Source of the DNA: an uncultured Clostridium sp.
Lineage (GTDB): Bacteria > Bacillota > Clostridia > TANB77 > CAG-508
Assembly (NCBI GenBank): GCA_930990645.1
Contig: CAKNQJ010000002.1
Span: 1 to 52,665 of the forward strand
Direction: 5' to 3'
DNA: 52,665 nt
The notes under the pieces are model-generated. The model ran no database searches. It had not been told where the DNA came from and saw only the letters and a program-made list of their open reading frames with translations. This document shows positions 4,485 through 44,993 of this stretch, one piece after another. A program made the translations under genes and the position numbers. The first letter of the stretch is position 1; the number at the start of each line of letters is the position of its first letter.

Positions 4485-4627
4485 GTGCCATTGGGTACAG
4501 ACCCCATTGGCACCAGAAAAAAGGGAATAGAGCAAAGTGTGCAATTGGGGTCTGTACCAAATTGCACAGGAGGTGTGTCCCAAAGTGTCAAAAAAAATTG
4601 ACAAAAAGGAGTGTCCCTTTTGTCAAA
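4485..4627. repeat. Cluster of GGGAC/GTCCC-core hairpin repeats in the ABC operon leader
   Basis: GTGCCATTGGGTACAGACCCCATTGGCAC, TGTGCAATTGGGGTCTGTACCAAATTGCACA, and TTGACAAAAAGGAGTGTCCCTTTTGTCAA. The same units recur at 14 or more other loci. Confidence 0.85.
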
Positions 4628-4644
4628 GAGAAAAAGGAGGAGTT

Positions 4645-6912
4645 ATGCTAAAAGTATTAAAAAATCTTAAAAATTCATGGGCAGCTGTATTAGTTATAGT
4701 TATTCTATTATGCGTGCAAGCTGCTGCAGACTTAGCTTTACCTGATTATACATCTAAGATTGTTAATGTTGGTATACAGTATGGTGGTATTGAAGAGAAA
4801 ATACCAGAAGTTATATCTAGCAGTACAATGCAAGATTTACTTGTGCTTACTGAGGAGGATAGTGAGATTTTAGATGGTTATGATTTGGTAAGAAATGAGG
4901 CTACAGATAGCCAAGAAAAAACTATTGAGAAATATCTTGGAGATGATTTTGATATTTCTAACAATAGTGTTTATGTTCTTAAAGATTTAAGTGAAGAGGA
5001 GTTAAACGAATTAACTAACGTTATAACAAATCCACTTATTGAGTATTCTTCTATTACAAGTGAAGAAACTGCAAATCAAATAAAAGAGAGCATTATGCAA
5101 ACAATGAGCGAGGAGAATAAAGCCGCTCTTTCAAACTTAGATATTATGAGCATTTTAGAGTTAATGCCAGCATCTCAAAGGGATACAGTTTTAGAAGAGT
5201 TTACTAACTATATATCTCAAATGTCAGATTCAATTAAAGAACAAGCTGCAATTAGTGCTGTTAAGCAAGTTTATACTGATGCAGGTGTAGATACAGATAA
5301 GTTACAAAATGATTATATCTTAATGTCGGGGCTCCAAATGCTTGGTGTAGCGTTAGTAAGTATGATATCAGCAGTTACGATTATGCTATTATCATCTAGG
5401 GTTGCAGCTAGACTTGGAAAGACATTAAGGGATAAAGTGTTTAAAAAAGTTCTAAGCTTTTCAACAGCTGAGCTTAGAGAGTTTTCAACAGCCTCTCTTA
5501 TAACACGTAGCACAAATGATATTCAACAAATTCAACAATTAATTGCAATTCTATTTAGAGTTGTAGTGTATGCGCCAATTATTGGTATAGGTGGATTTGT
5601 AAAAGTGCTAACATCAAGTGACTATTCTATGGCATGGATTATTGGTGTGGCAATAGTTGCAATACTATTTATAGTAGGAACATTGTTCGCAGTTGCAATG
5701 CCTAAATTTAGAAAATTGCAAGATTTAATTGATAAATTAAACCAAGTTTCAAGAGAAATCCTAACAGGACTTCCAGTTATAAGAGCTTTCAATAAAGAAA
5801 AGAAAGAAGAAGCAAGATTTGATGACTCTAACAAAGACTTAATGAAGACAAATGTATTTGTAAACAGATCAATGTCAATGATGATGCCACTTCTAATGTT
5901 TGTTATGAGCTCTATAACAGTGCTTATAGTATGGGTAGGAGCACATAATGTAGACGCTGGAACATTACAAGTTGGAGATATGATGGCATTTATTCAATAT
6001 ACAATGCAAATTGTAATGGCATTCTTAATGATATCTATGATATCAATTATGCTTCCAAGAGCAGCTGTGTCTGCAAGACGTATTAATGAAGTTGTAGACA
6101 CAGAGCCAAGTATAAAGGATAAAGAAGAAACAAAGAAATTTAATCCTGACAAAAAAGGATTAGTTGAGTTTAAAAATGTTTCATTTAGATATCCAGATGC
6201 AGATACAGAAATACTAGAAGATATTAACTTTACTGCAGAGCCAGGAAAGACTACAGCTTTAATAGGTAGCACAGGTAGCGGTAAATCTACTGTGGTAAAT
6301 TTGATACCAAGATTTTATGATGTAACAGAGGGAGAACTTTTAGTAGATGGTGTAAATGTAAAAGATGTTGCACAAAAAGATTTAAGAGACATCATAGGAT
6401 TTGTACCTCAAAAAGGAATATTATTCTCTGGAACTATTGAATCAAACATTAAATATGCAGATGAGAATATTTCTGATGAGCAAATGAAGAAAGCAGCAGA
6501 AATTGCACAAGCTACAGAGTTTATTGAGGGTAAACCAGCAAAATACCAAGACCCAATTGCACAAGGTGGAGGAAATGTATCTGGTGGACAAAAACAACGT
6601 TTATCAATAGCAAGAGCTATTGCAAAAGACCCAGAAATATTTATATTTGATGACAGTTTTTCTGCATTGGATTTCAAAACAGATAGTAAGTTACGTGAAG
6701 CTTTGGCAGAAAAAACAGAAAACAAAACAGTTATTATTGTTGCTCAAAGAATTAGCACAATATTAAACGCAGATAAGATAATTGTATTAGAAGAAGGAAA
6801 GATAGTGGGTCAAGGTACACACGAAGAATTAATGGAAAATAATGAAACATATAAACAAATTGCATTATCACAATTATCTGAAGAAGAATTAAATGGGAAA
6901 GGAGGAAAATAG
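4645..6912 (+). CDS. ABC exporter, fused permease/ATPase subunit (long insert between TM1 and TM2)
   Basis: AAGGAGG before ATG 4645. Walker A GSTGSGKST, signature VSGGQKQR, Walker B IFIFDDSFSALD. The ORF-track extension from 4537 only translates the repeat cluster. Confidence 0.9.
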   Translation: MLKVLKNLKNSWAAVLVIVILLCVQAAADLALPDYTSKIVNVGIQYGGIEEKIPEVISSSTMQDLLVLTEEDSEILDGYDLVRNEATDSQEKTIEKYLGDDFDISNNSVYVLKDLSEEELNELTNVITNPLIEYSSITSEETANQIKESIMQTMSEENKAALSNLDIMSILELMPASQRDTVLEEFTNYISQMSDSIKEQAAISAVKQVYTDAGVDTDKLQNDYILMSGLQMLGVALVSMISAVTIMLLSSRVAARLGKTLRDKVFKKVLSFSTAELREFSTASLITRSTNDIQQIQQLIAILFRVVVYAPIIGIGGFVKVLTSSDYSMAWIIGVAIVAILFIVGTLFAVAMPKFRKLQDLIDKLNQVSREILTGLPVIRAFNKEKKEEARFDDSNKDLMKTNVFVNRSMSMMMPLLMFVMSSITVLIVWVGAHNVDAGTLQVGDMMAFIQYTMQIVMAFLMISMISIMLPRAAVSARRINEVVDTEPSIKDKEETKKFNPDKKGLVEFKNVSFRYPDADTEILEDINFTAEPGKTTALIGSTGSGKSTVVNLIPRFYDVTEGELLVDGVNVKDVAQKDLRDIIGFVPQKGILFSGTIESNIKYADENISDEQMKKAAEIAQATEFIEGKPAKYQDPIAQGGGNVSGGQKQRLSIARAIAKDPEIFIFDDSFSALDFKTDSKLREALAEKTENKTVIIVAQRISTILNADKIIVLEEGKIVGQGTHEELMENNETYKQIALSQLSEEELNGKGGK

Positions 6913-44444: not shown

Positions 44445-44690
44445 ATGAGGGGAGAAAGAGGAGTAAGATTAACTTTGCTGGTTATTGCAACAGTTATAGC
44501 AATTCTTATATGCATTATAATTTATTGCATATTTTTTAGTCAAAATGGAATAGTTACTATGTTGGGAGAAACGAAAACAGTAATAGAAAATAGCTACAAA
44601 GAAGAAGCAGAGACTTTATCACAATTTGAGGATTACATAGATAGCTATATGCCAGATGATAAGCTATACCTAAGTTACCATGGTGACTAG
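44445..44690 (+). CDS. Small membrane-anchored hypothetical protein
   Basis: ORF with one N-terminal TM (LTLLVIATVIAILICIIIYCIFF). Weak RBS, no family match recognised. Confidence 0.3.
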   Translation: MRGERGVRLTLLVIATVIAILICIIIYCIFFSQNGIVTMLGETKTVIENSYKEEAETLSQFEDYIDSYMPDDKLYLSYHGD

Positions 44691-44880
44691 TTATATATGA
44701 AATTATATATAAATATAACATAAGAAATTGAAAGCAATAAAATTTTATGTATAAATTAGCGTGTGCAATTTGTGCCACTATATGTAAATATATTAAAGCT
44801 ATATTTATACATTATAAACATACATTAATTTATATAATCTCAACGCTTAAGAATAAGGGACCGAAAGAGGAAAACCAAAA

Positions 44881-44993
44881 TGTCCAAATTCTTTGACAAA
44901 GAGGAGTGTCCAAAACGTCCAAGTTTTTGGATGAAAAGGAGTGTCCCAAAGTGTAAAATGAAATTGACAAAAAGGAGTGTCCCTAAGCGTAAA
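44881..44993 (+). repeat. Three tandem ~35-nt GGAGTGTCC hairpin units in the glyQS leader
   Basis: TTGACAAAGAGGAGTGTCCAAAACGTCCAAG / TTGGATGAAAAGGAGTGTCCCAAAGTGTAAA / TTGACAAAAAGGAGTGTCCCTAAGCGTAAA. Confidence 0.85.

What the first reader, a model, noticed from the sequence alone, without database searches (positions are those of the whole stretch)
4485..44993. Dense family of GGGAC...GTCCC-core hairpin repeats with a small vocabulary of stem words (15 or more loci in 52 kb)
**Loci.** 4485-4627, 8767-8803, 13974-14123, 16509-16533, 18463-18515, 20449-20552, 20611-20656, 23672-23707, 24072-24129, 26298-26443, 32757-32817, 33539-33593, 35179-35199, 42980-43042, 44364-44420 and 44881-44993.

**Unit structure.** Each unit is an imperfect palindrome of the form word, then A/T-run, then GG(A/G)N(T)GTCCC, then A/T-run, then the word's complement. 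The words come from a short list: TTGACAAA, TTGGAC(G), TTTACAC or TTTACGC, TTCGAAC, GCAATTG/CCATTGG, and GAATTT. An example is TTGACAAAAGGGACACTCCTTTTTGTCAA.

**Location.** The units sit after stop codons (polC, glmU, frr, gerAC), between convergent genes, inside 5' leaders (ABC operon, glyQS), inside an operon (gerAA-gerAB) and once inside a CDS.

**Interpretation.** They resemble REP/BOX-type elements, but I do not recognise the family and no RAYT-like transposase is in the window. The modular reuse of words on a constant core is unusual. It could reflect a protein- or RNA-guided recognition code, terminator or RNA-stability hairpins, or a mobilised palindrome.

**Side effect.** They also generate spurious N-terminal ORF extensions (KRSVPK, ECPFCQ peptides) in the ORF track.
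Basis: seen in the sequence. Interest (0 to 1): 0.62.

Follow-up and report, generated by a model that had tools for sequence, protein, structure and literature searches.

The report
REP-like hairpin repeats with their transposases
The GGGAC hairpins are a genome-wide family of small REP-like repeats between genes of an uncultured gut Clostridium; each subtype matches a RAYT/TIRYT-type tyrosine transposase gene elsewhere in the genome or genus that is bracketed by inverted copies of it.

Summary
GGGACAC occurs 17 times in the window against about 1 expected. GGGACACT and GGGACAGG are the most over-represented 8-mers in the 1.0-Mb assembly, which holds about 239 clusters and 458 cores, roughly 8% of intergenic DNA.

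The units are about 35-36 nt long. Each has a variable stem "word", an apical GGGAC-N4-5 core, and usually the word's complement. They form strictly phased arrays.

The window has no partner gene, but the genome has two. These are 242- and 266-aa HUH/Y1 proteins whose closest solved structure is E. coli TnpA-REP (4ER8). One is bracketed by inverted GGGACACTCC arrays, the other by inverted GGGACAGGTC doublets.

In relatives, 28 of 31 such genes carry GGGAC-bearing inverted repeats. The protein tree matches the core variants.

This fits the published TIRYT/"TIRtron" class, whose motif is GGGGWSAS. That class has been reported as having no REP partners.

New here are the high density, the several co-resident subfamilies, the head-to-tail phasing, and a strict orientation rule. 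The word end abuts the neighbouring gene and cores face inward ("><" 20 regions, "<>" none). The rule replicates in other Clostridia.

Mobilisation by the Y1 enzymes is inferred, not shown.

The parts
4485..4565 (.). Two decayed palindromic-type hairpins (GTGCCATTGGGTACAGACCCCATTGGCAC and TGCAATTGGGGTCTGTACCAAATTGCA) upstream of the ABC transporter gene.
   Evidence: (family D6).
4570..4628 (-). Type A doublet (cores GGGACACACC and GGGACACTCC on the minus strand). Its word end lies about 17 nt upstream of the ABC transporter start codon (4645), directly before the ribosome-binding site.
8767..8803 (.). Palindromic-type relative GCAATTGGGGATAGACCCCAATTGC followed by a T-run, between convergent genes.
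   Evidence: (D14/D20).
13973..14032 (+). Type A doublet. Its word end abuts the ribosome-binding site (read on the opposite strand) of a small minus-strand ORF (13809-13961). It is conserved in G001.
14033..14125 (-). Type B array (one decayed unit plus two GGGACAGGT[TC] units) that overlaps the gerAC stop codon. 60 nt of it is absent in G001, whose flanks are about 97% identical.
16509..16533 (.). Perfect palindrome GCAATTGGGGACTGTCCCCAATTGC between gerAA and gerAB. It folds at -12.3 kcal/mol as single-stranded DNA. A 29-nt stretch that includes it is absent in G001.
18459..18516 (+). Doublet with the TTGGAC word and a type A core, then a GGGACAGGT core, 95 nt upstream of the gerAA start (gerAA is on the minus strand).
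20449..20552 (.). Array directly after a stop codon (20448): a forward core at 20473, a reverse core at 20509, and a decayed unit. G005 has an array at the same site with the word TTGAAC in place of TTGGAC.
20610..20666 (-). 57-nt doublet with the CGAAC word (GGGACACACC plus a decayed GGAACGGAGC) that abuts the spoIVA stop codon.
   Evidence: (D17).
23672..23707 (.). Hybrid GGGGACGGAG|TGTCCCC between the GlmU-like gene and traX (convergent). It looks like a 165-nt array, still present in G001, after an internal deletion of about 122 nt.
24072..24128 (-). 57-nt doublet with the CGAAC word, in frame inside the TraX CDS (about residues 111-130). It is also present in G001.
   Evidence: (D17).
26298..26357 (+). 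Type A doublet. Its word end abuts the ribosome-binding site of the minus-strand gene 24533-26284.
26388..26451 (-). GGGACAGGTC core plus a type A unit with the TTGGAC word, abutting the stop codon of gene 26446-28266. A 77-nt indel against G001 lies here.
32757..32817 (.). Two decayed palindromic-type hairpins between convergent genes. They are absent from the orthologous sites of L039, L035 and L036.
33539..33593 (+). GGGACGGAGC unit with the CGAAC word, plus a decayed second unit.
35179..35199 (.). Hairpin ATTTAGGGACTGTCCCTAAAT that overlaps the frr stop codon. It is absent from the orthologous sites of 9 relatives.
42979..43040 (+). Canonical type A doublet, TTGACAAAAGGGACACTCCTTTTTGTCAA, a linker, then TTTACACTTGGGGACACTTC, 8 nt after the polC stop codon.
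44364..44420 (-). Decayed doublet with the TTGGAC word, in the leader of a small ORF (44475-44690).
44881..45000 (-). Array of three to four type A units in the GlyRS leader, ending at the ribosome-binding site. No T-box or any other Rfam family matches here.

Best explanation
The repeats are REP-like, non-autonomous hairpin elements. They belong to a set of RAYT/TIRYT-type HUH single-tyrosine (Y1) transposases encoded in the same genomes.

**Unit.** Each unit of about 35-36 nt folds, as single-stranded DNA, into a stem-loop. The outer stem is a subfamily-specific "word". The top of the stem is the constant GGGA(C) paired, often through a G.T wobble, with TCCY or GTCYC.

**Partner genes.** Each Y1 gene is a single-copy gene held in a conserved neighbourhood. 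It is bracketed by inverted arrays of its own subtype, in a REPtron/TIRtron layout.

**Inferred mechanism.** By analogy with E. coli TnpA-REP and the IS200/IS605 TnpA proteins, the enzyme would bind the hairpin and the conserved core on single-stranded DNA. It would then cut and rejoin there. This would spread, duplicate head-to-tail, invert, fuse and delete units, almost only in intergenic DNA.

**The vocabulary.** The small vocabulary on a constant core arises because several Y1 paralogues, each with its own core variant and words, live together in one 1.3-1.8-Mb genome. The words also turn over species by species.

**Shown and inferred.** Shown: the anatomy, the enrichment, the bracketing of the Y1 genes, the co-diversification, the presence/absence differences, and the fold. 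Inferred: that the Y1 proteins are the mobilising enzymes, where they cut, and why the elements point away from genes.
For: 1. **Enrichment and intergenic placement**.
2. **Two Y1 genes in the genome.**
   - The genome has two PF01797 genes.
   - C10:22123-22848 lies between a forward array of three GGGACAC cores (C10:21836-21936) and a reverse doublet (23167-23231). The two share a 54-nt exact inverted repeat.
   - C6:4355-5155 lies between GGGACAGGTC doublets at 4296-4354 (forward) and 5416-5472 (reverse).
3. **Relatives.** 28 of 31 Y1 loci, from the genus and from four other families of the order, are flanked by inverted repeats that hold GGGAC.
4. **Co-diversification.** The Y1 tree is congruent with the flanking core. 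Clade I carries GGGACAGGYC or a close variant in 7 of 9 members. G000c10 and G024 carry GGGACACTCC. Three further clades each have their own variant, all with 100/95-99 support.
5. **Co-occurrence.** Across 41 genomes, at least 10 copies of GGGACAGGYC goes with the clade-I Y1 (counts 8/2/3/28, Fisher p = 7e-5).
6. **Metagenome orthologues.**
   - Orthologues of the type-A Y1 at 98%, 82% and 65% identity carry type A arrays. The 82% and 65% copies are bracketed on both sides by inverted doublets, between the same neighbours (RarA/MgsA-like and Band_7/NfeD genes). The 98% copy sits on a 1.15-kb contig that shows the array only downstream.
   - Two of these contigs end inside the repeats.
7. **Protein.**
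   - The HUH histidines and the tyrosine are invariant.
   - NCBIfam's best match is REP_Tyr_transpos.
   - The profile's best PDB hit is 4ER8, TnpA-REP (E = 2.5e-6).
   - The AF2 model (pLDDT 85) has 4ER8 as top Foldseek hit (E = 2e-8, target TM 0.75), ahead of the IS608 and ISDra2 transposases.
8. **Hairpins** fold far better than shuffles, with z down to -7.
9. **Turnover against G001** (about 96-98% identical): indels of 60, 29, 77 and 91 nt, and a 122-nt contraction within an array. In 140 kb aligned, 41 cores are shared, 29 are own-only and 17 are G001-only.
10. **Literature.** TIRYT genes are flanked by TIRs with the motif GGGGWSAS, and some of those TIRs form repeat families in dimers or clusters (PMC3733652).
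Against: - No biochemical or direct transposition evidence exists.
- The direction of the indels against G001 could not be set. In two cases the "empty" site keeps a family word, which suggests deletion rather than insertion.
- G001, G002, G005 and G016 hold 37-109 GGGACACTCC copies, but none has a close orthologue of the type-A Y1 in its assembly. The best match is 41-44% identical. A likely cause is assembly breaks at the flanking repeats, but loss of the gene is not excluded.
- Some genomes have Y1 genes with GGGAC flanks but few dispersed copies.
- The canonical REP hallmark, GT[AG]G at the foot of the hairpin, is absent.
- The NCBIfam RAYT score (58 bits) is below that model's cut-off of 80.
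- C-terminal HTH matches are weak.
- The strong orientation rule is not predicted by simple Y1 transposition. It may reflect selection at the RNA level.
Confidence: 0.8

Rival explanations
1. The hairpins are mainly cis-acting RNA elements kept by selection. In the sense orientation they would act as transcription terminators, 3'-end stabilisers or insulators after genes. In the antisense orientation they would be tolerated, or regulatory, in 5' leaders. The Y1 genes would be incidental.
For: - Orientation relative to transcription is extreme. Near stop codons the GGGAC strand is the sense strand (A 59:15, B 46:5). Near start codons it is the antisense strand (A 1:48, B 2:21).
- The sense-strand hairpin of the commonest unit is the more stable one (-11.9 against -10.6 kcal/mol) and is followed by TTTTTCTTT.
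- Elements sit a median of 8 nt after stop codons.
- They are under-represented between divergent genes.
Against: - This reading does not explain the bracketing of the Y1 genes, the co-diversification of protein and core, the phased head-to-tail arrays, the in-frame copy inside traX, or the rapid turnover between 96-98% identical genomes.
- In "><" regions between tandem genes there is little or no room for a promoter between the two halves, so the ">" half cannot be an efficient terminator there.
- The consensus terminator scan flags few of the units.
- No Rfam family matches.
- A secondary, co-opted RNA role is not excluded and is compatible with the best explanation.
Confidence: 0.12
2. The repeats are arrays of binding sites for a host DNA-binding protein, such as a nucleoid-organising or HTH protein. 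They would be kept for chromosome structure and would not be mobile.
For: - The lattice is a strict 35-36 nt.
- Half-site-like words (TTGACA, TTTACAC) recur at spacings of about 9-10 nt from the core.
- The Y1 proteins carry a C-terminal HTH-like tail.
Against: - Copies differ in presence or absence and in words between close relatives. Whole subfamilies are missing from most species of the genus.
- Placement is almost only intergenic and hugs gene ends, rather than being spread along the chromosome.
- No candidate protein other than the Y1 enzymes co-varies with the repeats.
Confidence: 0.04
3. The repeats are MITEs derived from, and moved by, a conventional DDE insertion sequence.
For: They are short, have inverted-repeat character, are clustered and are intergenic.
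Against: - None of the indels against G001 shows a target-site duplication.
- The units are much shorter than typical MITEs and are arrayed head-to-tail.
- The only genes found bracketed by them are Y1 genes.
- No systematic search for DDE transposases with matching ends was made.
Confidence: 0.02

Closest known systems
TIRtrons / TIRYT (TIR-associated tyrosine transposases; Di Nocera, De Gregorio and Rocco 2013, PMC3733652), probably the same as TnpA-Y1 subclass 2.1 (Quentin et al. 2018, PMC6006769)
   Same: - A RAYT-like Y1 gene with a C-terminal HTH-like extension, bracketed by inverted repeats.
- The repeats share a G-rich motif, GGGGWSAS. Here the cores are (G)GGGACAC and (G)GGGACAG.
- In some genomes the flanking repeats also occur as moderately abundant families, in dimers or clusters.
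- Several such genes, each with its own repeat, can sit in one genome.
   Different: - The published cases are Proteobacteria, Acidobacteria and similar groups, and the repeats were treated as TIRs.
- Quentin et al. state that neither automatic nor manual searches found REP-like sequences near subclass 2.1 genes.
- Here the flanking repeats are short hairpin units with hundreds of dispersed copies (about 8% of intergenic DNA), phased head-to-tail at 35-36 nt, in Clostridia with 1.3-1.8-Mb genomes.
- Membership of subclass 2.1 itself was not tested against the authors' profiles.
REP/REPIN-RAYT systems and BIMEs of Enterobacteria and Pseudomonas (Nunvar 2010; Bertels and Rainey 2011, PMC3116915; Ton-Hoang 2012; structure 4ER8)
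   Same: - Extragenic palindromic units of 20-40 nt in high copy.
- Clustered into mosaic arrays with fixed linkers.
- Enriched after genes and between convergent genes.
- Occasional in-frame copies inside genes.
- A cognate single-copy Y1 gene flanked by inverted units.
- The closest protein fold is TnpA-REP.
   Different: - There is no GT[AG]G (or CGTC) tag at the foot of the hairpin. The conserved bases sit at the top of the stem and in the loop.
- Head-to-tail dimers dominate (152 same-strand neighbour pairs against 45 facing and 9 back-to-back). In GTAG and CGTC families such dimers are absent or rare (PMC3733652).
- The proteins are about 240-290 aa with an HTH-like tail.
- There is a strict rule that units point away from the adjacent gene.
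IS200/IS605 family (IS608, ISDra2) TnpA with subterminal hairpins
   Same: HUH/Y1 catalytic fold. Recognition of imperfect hairpins on single-stranded DNA. No target-site duplication.
   Different: - These Y1 genes are single-copy and stay in the same neighbourhood across species.
- Their flanking hairpins are inverted rather than on the same strand.
- The dispersed copies are the hairpins, not the gene.
- The canonical IS200-type genes found in some relatives (160-190 aa, E about 1e-40) are a separate group.

Membership tests
REP/REPIN-RAYT system | Short imperfect palindromes, high copy number, almost only extragenic. | tested here: met
   17 GGGACAC in the window against 0.97 expected. The cores are the top-ranked 8-mers genome-wide. 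88-100% of cores lie outside genes. Hairpins fold with z = -3.5 to -7 for the main types.
REP/REPIN-RAYT system | A Y1 (HUH) transposase gene bracketed by inverted copies of the same repeat (REPtron). | tested here: met
   Both Y1 genes of the genome. 28 of 31 loci in relatives. Orthologues from metagenomes.
REP/REPIN-RAYT system | A conserved GT[AG]G tetranucleotide at the 5' foot of the hairpin. | tested here: not met
   The position-specific profile and the listings show conservation only of GGGAC-N4-5 at the top of the stem. The feet are variable words.
REP/REPIN-RAYT system | The partner gene has the RAYT fold and catalytic residues. | tested here: met
   Pfam Y1_Tnp matches in 22 of 22 proteins. 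The HUH histidines and the tyrosine are invariant. The best PDB profile hit is 4ER8. The top Foldseek hit is 4ER8, E = 2e-8. The NCBIfam REP_Tyr_transpos score, 58 bits, is below the cut-off of 80.
REP/REPIN-RAYT system | The partner gene behaves as a single-copy, vertically inherited gene and not as an insertion sequence. | tested here: inconclusive
   Orthologues at 65-100% identity have the same neighbours (RarA/MgsA-like, Band_7, NfeD). There are one to four diverged paralogues per genome and no identical duplicates. The MAGs are incomplete.
REP/REPIN-RAYT system | The enzyme cuts and joins its REP, and the elements move. | not testable with these tools
   Only indels between genomes were seen, and their direction could not be set.
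TIRtron / TIRYT (TnpA-Y1 subclass 2.1) | The flanking inverted repeats carry GGGGWSAS. | tested here: met
   Flanks with GGGGACAC or GGGGACAG occur in 8 loci, and with (N)GGGACAC or (N)GGGACAG in 7 more. Other clades have GGGGACG[GT], which departs at one position. The motif is taken from PMC3733652 and PMC6006769.
TIRtron / TIRYT (TnpA-Y1 subclass 2.1) | A C-terminal HTH-type domain (HTH_23, HTH_28 or Bac_DnaA_C). | tested here: inconclusive
   Weak HTH_23 matches in 6 of 22 proteins and HTH_28 in 4 of 22, with best E = 9e-6 and most below the gathering score. No Bac_DnaA_C match. The AF2 model has C-terminal helices at 204-241.
TIRtron / TIRYT (TnpA-Y1 subclass 2.1) | Assignment by the authors' subclass profiles or tree. 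| not tested
MITE | Terminal inverted repeats matching a parent insertion sequence, plus a target-site duplication. | tested here: not met
   No duplications at the indel borders. The only bracketed genes are Y1 genes.
CRISPR array | Regular repeats separated by unique spacers. | tested here: not met
   The period is 35-36 nt, but the whole unit is repeated and there are no unique spacers. The arrays hold 1-6 units and are scattered over 239 sites.
Rfam RNA families | A match to a curated covariance model. | tested here: not met
   The gathering search of the window found only a tRNA. E-value searches of three element-rich stretches gave nothing credible.

The most novel reading that the evidence does not exclude
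GGGAC-apex hairpins together with HTH-tailed Y1 enzymes may form a third REP super-family, beside the GTAG and CGTC families, that is widespread in Clostridia and perhaps beyond. It would differ in three ways.

1. Recognition or nicking would happen at the top or loop of the hairpin, as at rolling-circle origins, and not at its foot.
2. Growth would be by head-to-tail addition on a 35-36-nt lattice.
3. The enzyme would act on one side only. The core end always faces the middle of the intergenic region and the word end is pushed against the neighbouring gene. Possible causes are nested insertion at the core end or directional deletions next to the element.

If so, these domesticated transposases actively shape and compact the intergenic DNA of small gut genomes.
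Probability: 0.3. Interest if true: 0.7.

Novelty: new variant of a known kind. Interest (0 to 1): 0.55.

Why it matters
REP-RAYT biology rests almost wholly on Proteobacteria. The large HTH-tailed branch of the Y1 family (TIRYT, subclass 2.1) has been described as lacking REP partners.

This lineage gives that branch an abundant and well-resolved repeat partner. It has several paralogue/core pairs per genome, which form natural specificity swaps. It also has close relatives that differ by single units, so enzyme specificity and mobility become directly testable.

In practical terms, these repeats make up about 8% of the intergenic DNA of widespread uncultured gut Clostridia. They break metagenome assemblies and so hide their own transposase genes from MAGs. 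They create false N-terminal ORF extensions. They sit in leaders, on stop codons and even in frame inside a gene.

The orientation rule, seen in 44 further genomes, is an unexplained regularity. It constrains any model of how such elements insert or are selected.

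Tried and rejected
- **Rfam.** The gathering search of the window and three E-value searches gave no family.
- **Single-sequence search of PDB chains with the C6 Y1.** No hit. Only the profile and the fold search reached 4ER8.
- **Overall strand bias relative to transcription.** It looked absent (72 against 81). That was misleading, because the bias appears only after splitting by the nearest gene boundary.
- **Fixed-register covariation within type A.** It was weak, because the type A words resemble each other and the register shifts. 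A register-free test across subfamilies was used instead.
- **The idea that stem arms are copied from the target site.** Three palindromic copies seemed to use pre-existing host sequence as one arm. I set this aside because the "host" arms (ATGATAAATT, TGTGCAATT, ATGAGAATTT) are family words found at other loci. Those sites may therefore be partial deletions.
- **Setting the direction of indels with G005, G016 and G002 as outgroups.** The intergenic DNA was too diverged.
- **Consensus terminator scan.** It flags few units.
- **Close orthologue of the type-A Y1 in G001, G002, G005 and G016.** None was found.
- **CRISPR and DDE-MITE readings.** Rejected on anatomy.

Full report

Yes. The window is contig C2 of a 1.0-Mb, 44-contig, 31% G+C assembly that is 63% complete. 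By its polC relatives it is an uncultured gut Clostridia MAG lineage.

- GGGACAC occurs 17 times in the window. Dinucleotide-preserving shuffles give 0.97 +/- 1.13.
- Genome-wide, GGGACAGG (107 copies) and GGGACACT (172 copies) are the most over-represented 8-mers, at 34x and 24x the composition expectation.
- A crude gene call gives 83% coding. Only 0-12% of family cores lie in called genes, against 66% of all other GGGAC sites.
These are an ABC transporter, GerAC/GerAB/GerAA, a GlmU-like protein, RRF, GlyRS and polC. They also confirm a copy inside a CDS.

**2. Anatomy**

The constant part is GGGAC plus four or five bases, not a GGGAC...GTCCC palindrome. The commonest cores are:

| Core | Copies |
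|---|---|
| GGGACACTCC | 116 |
| GGGACAGGTC | 67 |
| GGGACACTTC | 31 |
| GGGACACACC | 25 |
| GGGACAGGCC | 25 |
| GGGACGGAGC | 16 |
| GGGAC[A/T]GTCCC (palindromic) | 13 sites |

- **Unit.** A unit is word, A/T spacer, core, A/T spacer, and usually the word's complement.
- **Folding.** As single-stranded DNA the commonest unit, TTGACAAAAGGGA-CAC-TCCTTTTTGTCAA, forms a hairpin that is fully paired with one G.T pair. In its 35-nt context this is 16 bp, at -11.9 kcal/mol with z = -7.0. The complementary strand, which has an A.C mismatch instead, folds at -10.6 kcal/mol. The palindromic type folds at -12.3 kcal/mol. Other types have an outer word stem, an internal loop and a small apical GGG(A)/(T)CC(C) stem.
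- **Arm complementarity.** Arms around one core are complementary more often than arms re-dealt among units. For at least 8 bp the figures are 29% against 11%, and for at least 10 bp 15% against 3.6%. Terminal units usually lack the 3' arm.
- **Lattice.** Same-strand neighbouring cores are 35-36 nt apart in 122 of 152 cases (136 within 34-36 nt). Facing cores are 41-42 nt apart and back-to-back cores 29-30 nt.
- **Totals.** There are about 239 clusters with 458 cores: 105 singles, 81 doublets and 53 larger arrays. That is about 14 kb, or 8% of intergenic DNA.
- **Known RNA families.** No Rfam family matches.

**3. The partner genes**

The window has none, but the genome has two Pfam Y1_Tnp genes.

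- C10:22123-22848 (242 aa) lies between a forward array of three GGGACAC cores (C10:21836-21936) and a reverse doublet (23167-23231). The two share a 54-nt exact inverted repeat.
- C6:4355-5155 (266 aa) lies between GGGACAGGTC doublets at 4296-4354 (forward) and 5416-5472 (reverse).

So each of the two most abundant subtypes brackets its own Y1 gene. This is the REPtron/TIRtron layout.

I then fetched 31 Y1 loci from 24 genomes. These came from the same genus and from four other families of the order. In 28 of them the gene is flanked by inverted repeats that contain GGGAC with lineage-specific words.

A maximum-likelihood tree of the proteins is congruent with the flanking core variant:

| Y1 clade | Flanking core | Support |
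|---|---|---|
| Clade I (9 proteins) | GGGACAGGYC or a close variant in 7 of 9 | 100/100 |
| G000c10 + G024 | GGGACACTCC | 100/99 |
| G020c1 + G021c44 | GGGACACACAA | 100/99 |
| G007c1 + G020c7 | GGGACGTTC | 100/99 |
| G011, G008c2, G001c63, G014c4 | palindromic GGGACAG[T/A]CCC | 100/95 |

- The remaining subtypes of this genome are the CGAAC-word units with GGGACACACC or GGGACGGAGC cores, and the palindromic GCAATTG type. They match the flanks of Y1 clades seen in sister genomes.
- One of these sister genomes is G001, which is 96-98% identical to G000. Their partners probably lie in the missing 37% of the assembly.
- Across 41 genomes, having at least 10 GGGACAGGYC copies goes with having a clade-I Y1 (8/2/3/28, Fisher p = 7e-5).

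**4. A caveat, and a likely reason for it**

G001, G002, G005 and G016 have 37-109 GGGACACTCC copies, but none has a close orthologue of the type-A Y1 in its assembly.

- In the protein collection, many relatives of this protein sit on contigs of about 1 kb.
- The 98%- and 82%-identical orthologues lie on contigs that end inside the flanking repeat arrays. Such genes are therefore easily lost from MAG bins.
- The 82%- and 65%-identical orthologues are bracketed by inverted type A doublets. They sit between the same neighbours as in G000 (RarA/MgsA-like on one side, Band_7/NfeD on the other).
- This behaviour fits a resident, vertically inherited gene rather than an insertion sequence.

**5. 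What the proteins are**

- All have the HUH histidines and the tyrosine (YIHxNP), followed by a Y-x-x-SS motif. Most end in an HTH-like ...LGIS+xx+Y+I... tail.
- The best NCBIfam match is REP_Tyr_transpos (E = 8e-16). Its score of 58 bits is below the equivalog cut-off of 80.
- A profile of 22 of these proteins hits E. coli TnpA-REP (4ER8) at E = 2.5e-6, ahead of ISDra2 TnpA at 0.026.
- I built an AlphaFold model of the 98%-identical orthologue (pLDDT 85, pTM 0.73). Its top Foldseek hit is 4ER8, "REP-associated tyrosine transposase bound to a REP hairpin" (E = 2e-8, target TM 0.75). The IS608, ISDra2 and IS200 transposases follow at 2e-5 or weaker.
- C-terminal HTH matches are weak: HTH_23 in 6 of 22 and HTH_28 in 4 of 22.

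**6. Comparison with the literature**

- Di Nocera et al. 2013 (PMC3733652) described RAYT-like genes flanked not by GTAG REPs but by inverted repeats that share GGGGWSAS. They named them TIRtrons and TIRYTs. They noted that some of these TIRs form "moderately abundant" families arranged in dimers or clusters.
- Quentin et al. 2018 (PMC6006769) equate TIRYTs with TnpA-Y1 subclass 2.1, which has a C-terminal HTH_23, HTH_28 or Bac_DnaA_C domain. They state that neither automatic nor manual searches found REP-like sequences near subclass 2.1 genes.
- Bertels et al. 2017 (PMC5581495) note that Group 1 RAYTs occur in Clostridia, but with only about 12 genome-wide copies of their flanking 16-mers.

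The cores here, (G)GGGACAC and (G)GGGACAG, fit GGGGWSAS. So the kind is known.

What I did not find described:
- hairpin units of this class in hundreds of copies in Clostridia;
- several paralogue/core pairs living together in genomes of about 1.5 Mb;
- the dominance of head-to-tail phased dimers, which are rare or absent in GTAG and CGTC families;
- the orientation rule described below.

Canonical REP membership fails on the GT[AG]G foot. The conserved bases here are at the top of the stem.

**7. Dynamics**

G001:C23 is collinear with window 9911-33534 at 96-98% identity. Differences that touch the family are:
- a 60-nt GGGACAGGT doublet at 14052;
- 29 nt including the palindrome at 16499;
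- 77 nt at 26339;
- the odd hybrid at 23672-23707. This is a 165-nt array, kept in G001, after a deletion of about 122 nt that joined GGGGACGGAG to TGTCCCC. It shows how palindromic cores can arise from two facing cores.

In 140 kb of aligned sequence, 41 cores are shared, 29 are own-only and 17 are G001-only.

More distant relatives often have an empty site or a different subtype at the same place. After the polC stop codon:

| Genome | Sequence after the polC stop |
|---|---|
| G000 | type A doublet |
| L039 | type B array |
| L035 | CCAAAGGGGACGAACCCTTTTGG hairpin |
| L046, L114, L041 | nothing |

- Where arrays look orthologous, the words differ in a compensating way. G000 has GTCCAAAAACTTGGA and G005 has GTTCAAAAACTTGAA. 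This points to concerted replacement within each genome.
- The direction of the indels could not be set. In two cases the "empty" allele keeps a family word, which suggests deletion.

**8. Placement and the orientation rule**

- Between tandem genes the elements sit a median of 8 nt after the upstream stop codon. 81 of 155 are within 15 nt of the stop, and 51 of 155 are within 25 nt of the next start.
- The share of intergenic regions occupied is 31% for convergent, 23% for tandem and 12% for divergent gene pairs.
- Pooled strand counts looked unbiased. Split by the nearest gene boundary, they are extreme:

| Position | Type A (sense:antisense) | Type B (sense:antisense) |
|---|---|---|
| Near a stop codon | 59:15 | 46:5 |
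| Near a start codon | 1:48 | 2:21 |

The Fisher tests give p = 1e-19 for type A and p = 9e-12 for type B.

- Put geometrically, forward cores lie on the left and reverse cores on the right of every intergenic region. 49 of 57 mixed regions read >+<+. There are 20 "><" regions and no "<>" region.
- The word end abuts the gene in 97 cases against 29. Its median distance to the gene is 12 nt, against 141 nt for the core end.
- The rule repeats in the polC-neighbourhood loci of other Clostridia, 44 of which have intergenic GGGAC sites between tandem genes. Their elements carry their own words and cores. Near stop codons the count is 46:5 sense, and near start codons 24:5 antisense. There are 19 >+<+ regions and one <+>+ region. 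The control motif CAGGG shows no such contrast.

I cannot decide between two explanations.
1. A mechanistic cause: the mobile unit is a facing pair that grows by insertion at its core ends, or there are one-sided deletions next to the element.
2. Selection: the sense-strand hairpin plus a U-run acts as a terminator, which is forbidden in leaders and tolerated or favoured after genes.

Many "><" pairs between tandem genes leave no room for a promoter between the halves. This argues against strong termination.

**9. Verdict**

The finding is a real, lineage-wide family of REP-like elements. I tie it with good confidence (0.8) to RAYT/TIRYT-type Y1 transposases. It is a new variant of a known kind.

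The steps shown are the anatomy, the enrichment, the bracketing, the co-diversification, the fold and the turnover. The inferred steps are that the Y1 enzymes move the units, where they cut, and what causes the orientation rule.

Noticed in passing
window 10594-10716, 16548-16670, 31990-32107, 46397-46517, 49449-49476: A separate repeat family of about 120 nt (TTGAAAAATAATTG...GCCTAGCCAAAA...TTTTCCAA) that sits directly on or after stop codons. It differs in presence or absence between G000, G001 and L035/L036.
   Followed up: partly
window 30584-30745, 34474-34573, 47607-47698: A third repeat family of about 90-160 nt (AAAGTCCGT...TATTCGAATAAAAAAT...CACGTGAGACTACAT) with an internal inverted repeat. 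About 26-36 related segments occur in the genome.
   Followed up: no
window 9690-9889, 13778-13808, 18522-18676; G001 insertion opposite window 22244: A fourth family of about 150-220 nt with the ends AGAAGAAGTATATATTTTTTT and inner motifs GGTGGGGACCGACAAGTT and GTTGGGGGCCGAAA. A 217-nt copy is present in G001 but absent from G000 at an otherwise 98% identical site. All repeat families together cover about 34 kb (3.4%) of the assembly.
   Followed up: partly
window 23714-24460 (minus strand), element at 24072-24128: The TraX-family CDS carries a 57-nt repeat doublet in frame. This adds about 19 residues (LSNKRDGVFVRNFEQKGHTY) between transmembrane segments. G001 has the same insert plus about 20 more residues.
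   Followed up: yes
window about 44040-44270: A cluster of DnaA-box-like sequences (TTATCCACA or TGTGGATAA, at least five copies) in the long intergenic region downstream of polC. It is conserved in L035, L036 and L039. GC skew does not change sign in the window, so this is probably not oriC.
   Followed up: no
window 44691-45011: The leader of the class II glycyl-tRNA synthetase gene has no T-box, and no Rfam match at all even at E <= 1. Its last 120 nt are taken up by the repeat array.
   Followed up: partly
window 30233-30502: An imperfect tandem repeat with a 12-nt period inside the CDS 29348-30559 (family D1 of the repeat scan).
   Followed up: no
G000:C10:22985-23137: Between the type-A Y1 gene and its upstream array lies a further repeated segment of about 150 nt. 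It has a G+C-rich palindrome (CTCCGTCCCGACGGAGCTCCCTGCTCCGCTCGG). The 98%-identical orthologue's contig also begins within it.
   Followed up: no
window 15354 and 17040-17070: A 46-nt indel against G001 lies at the gerAC/gerAB junction. The gerAA frame is broken at a CGG codon, which earlier notes of this scan link to four-base decoding of CGG in this lineage. I did not examine this.
   Followed up: no
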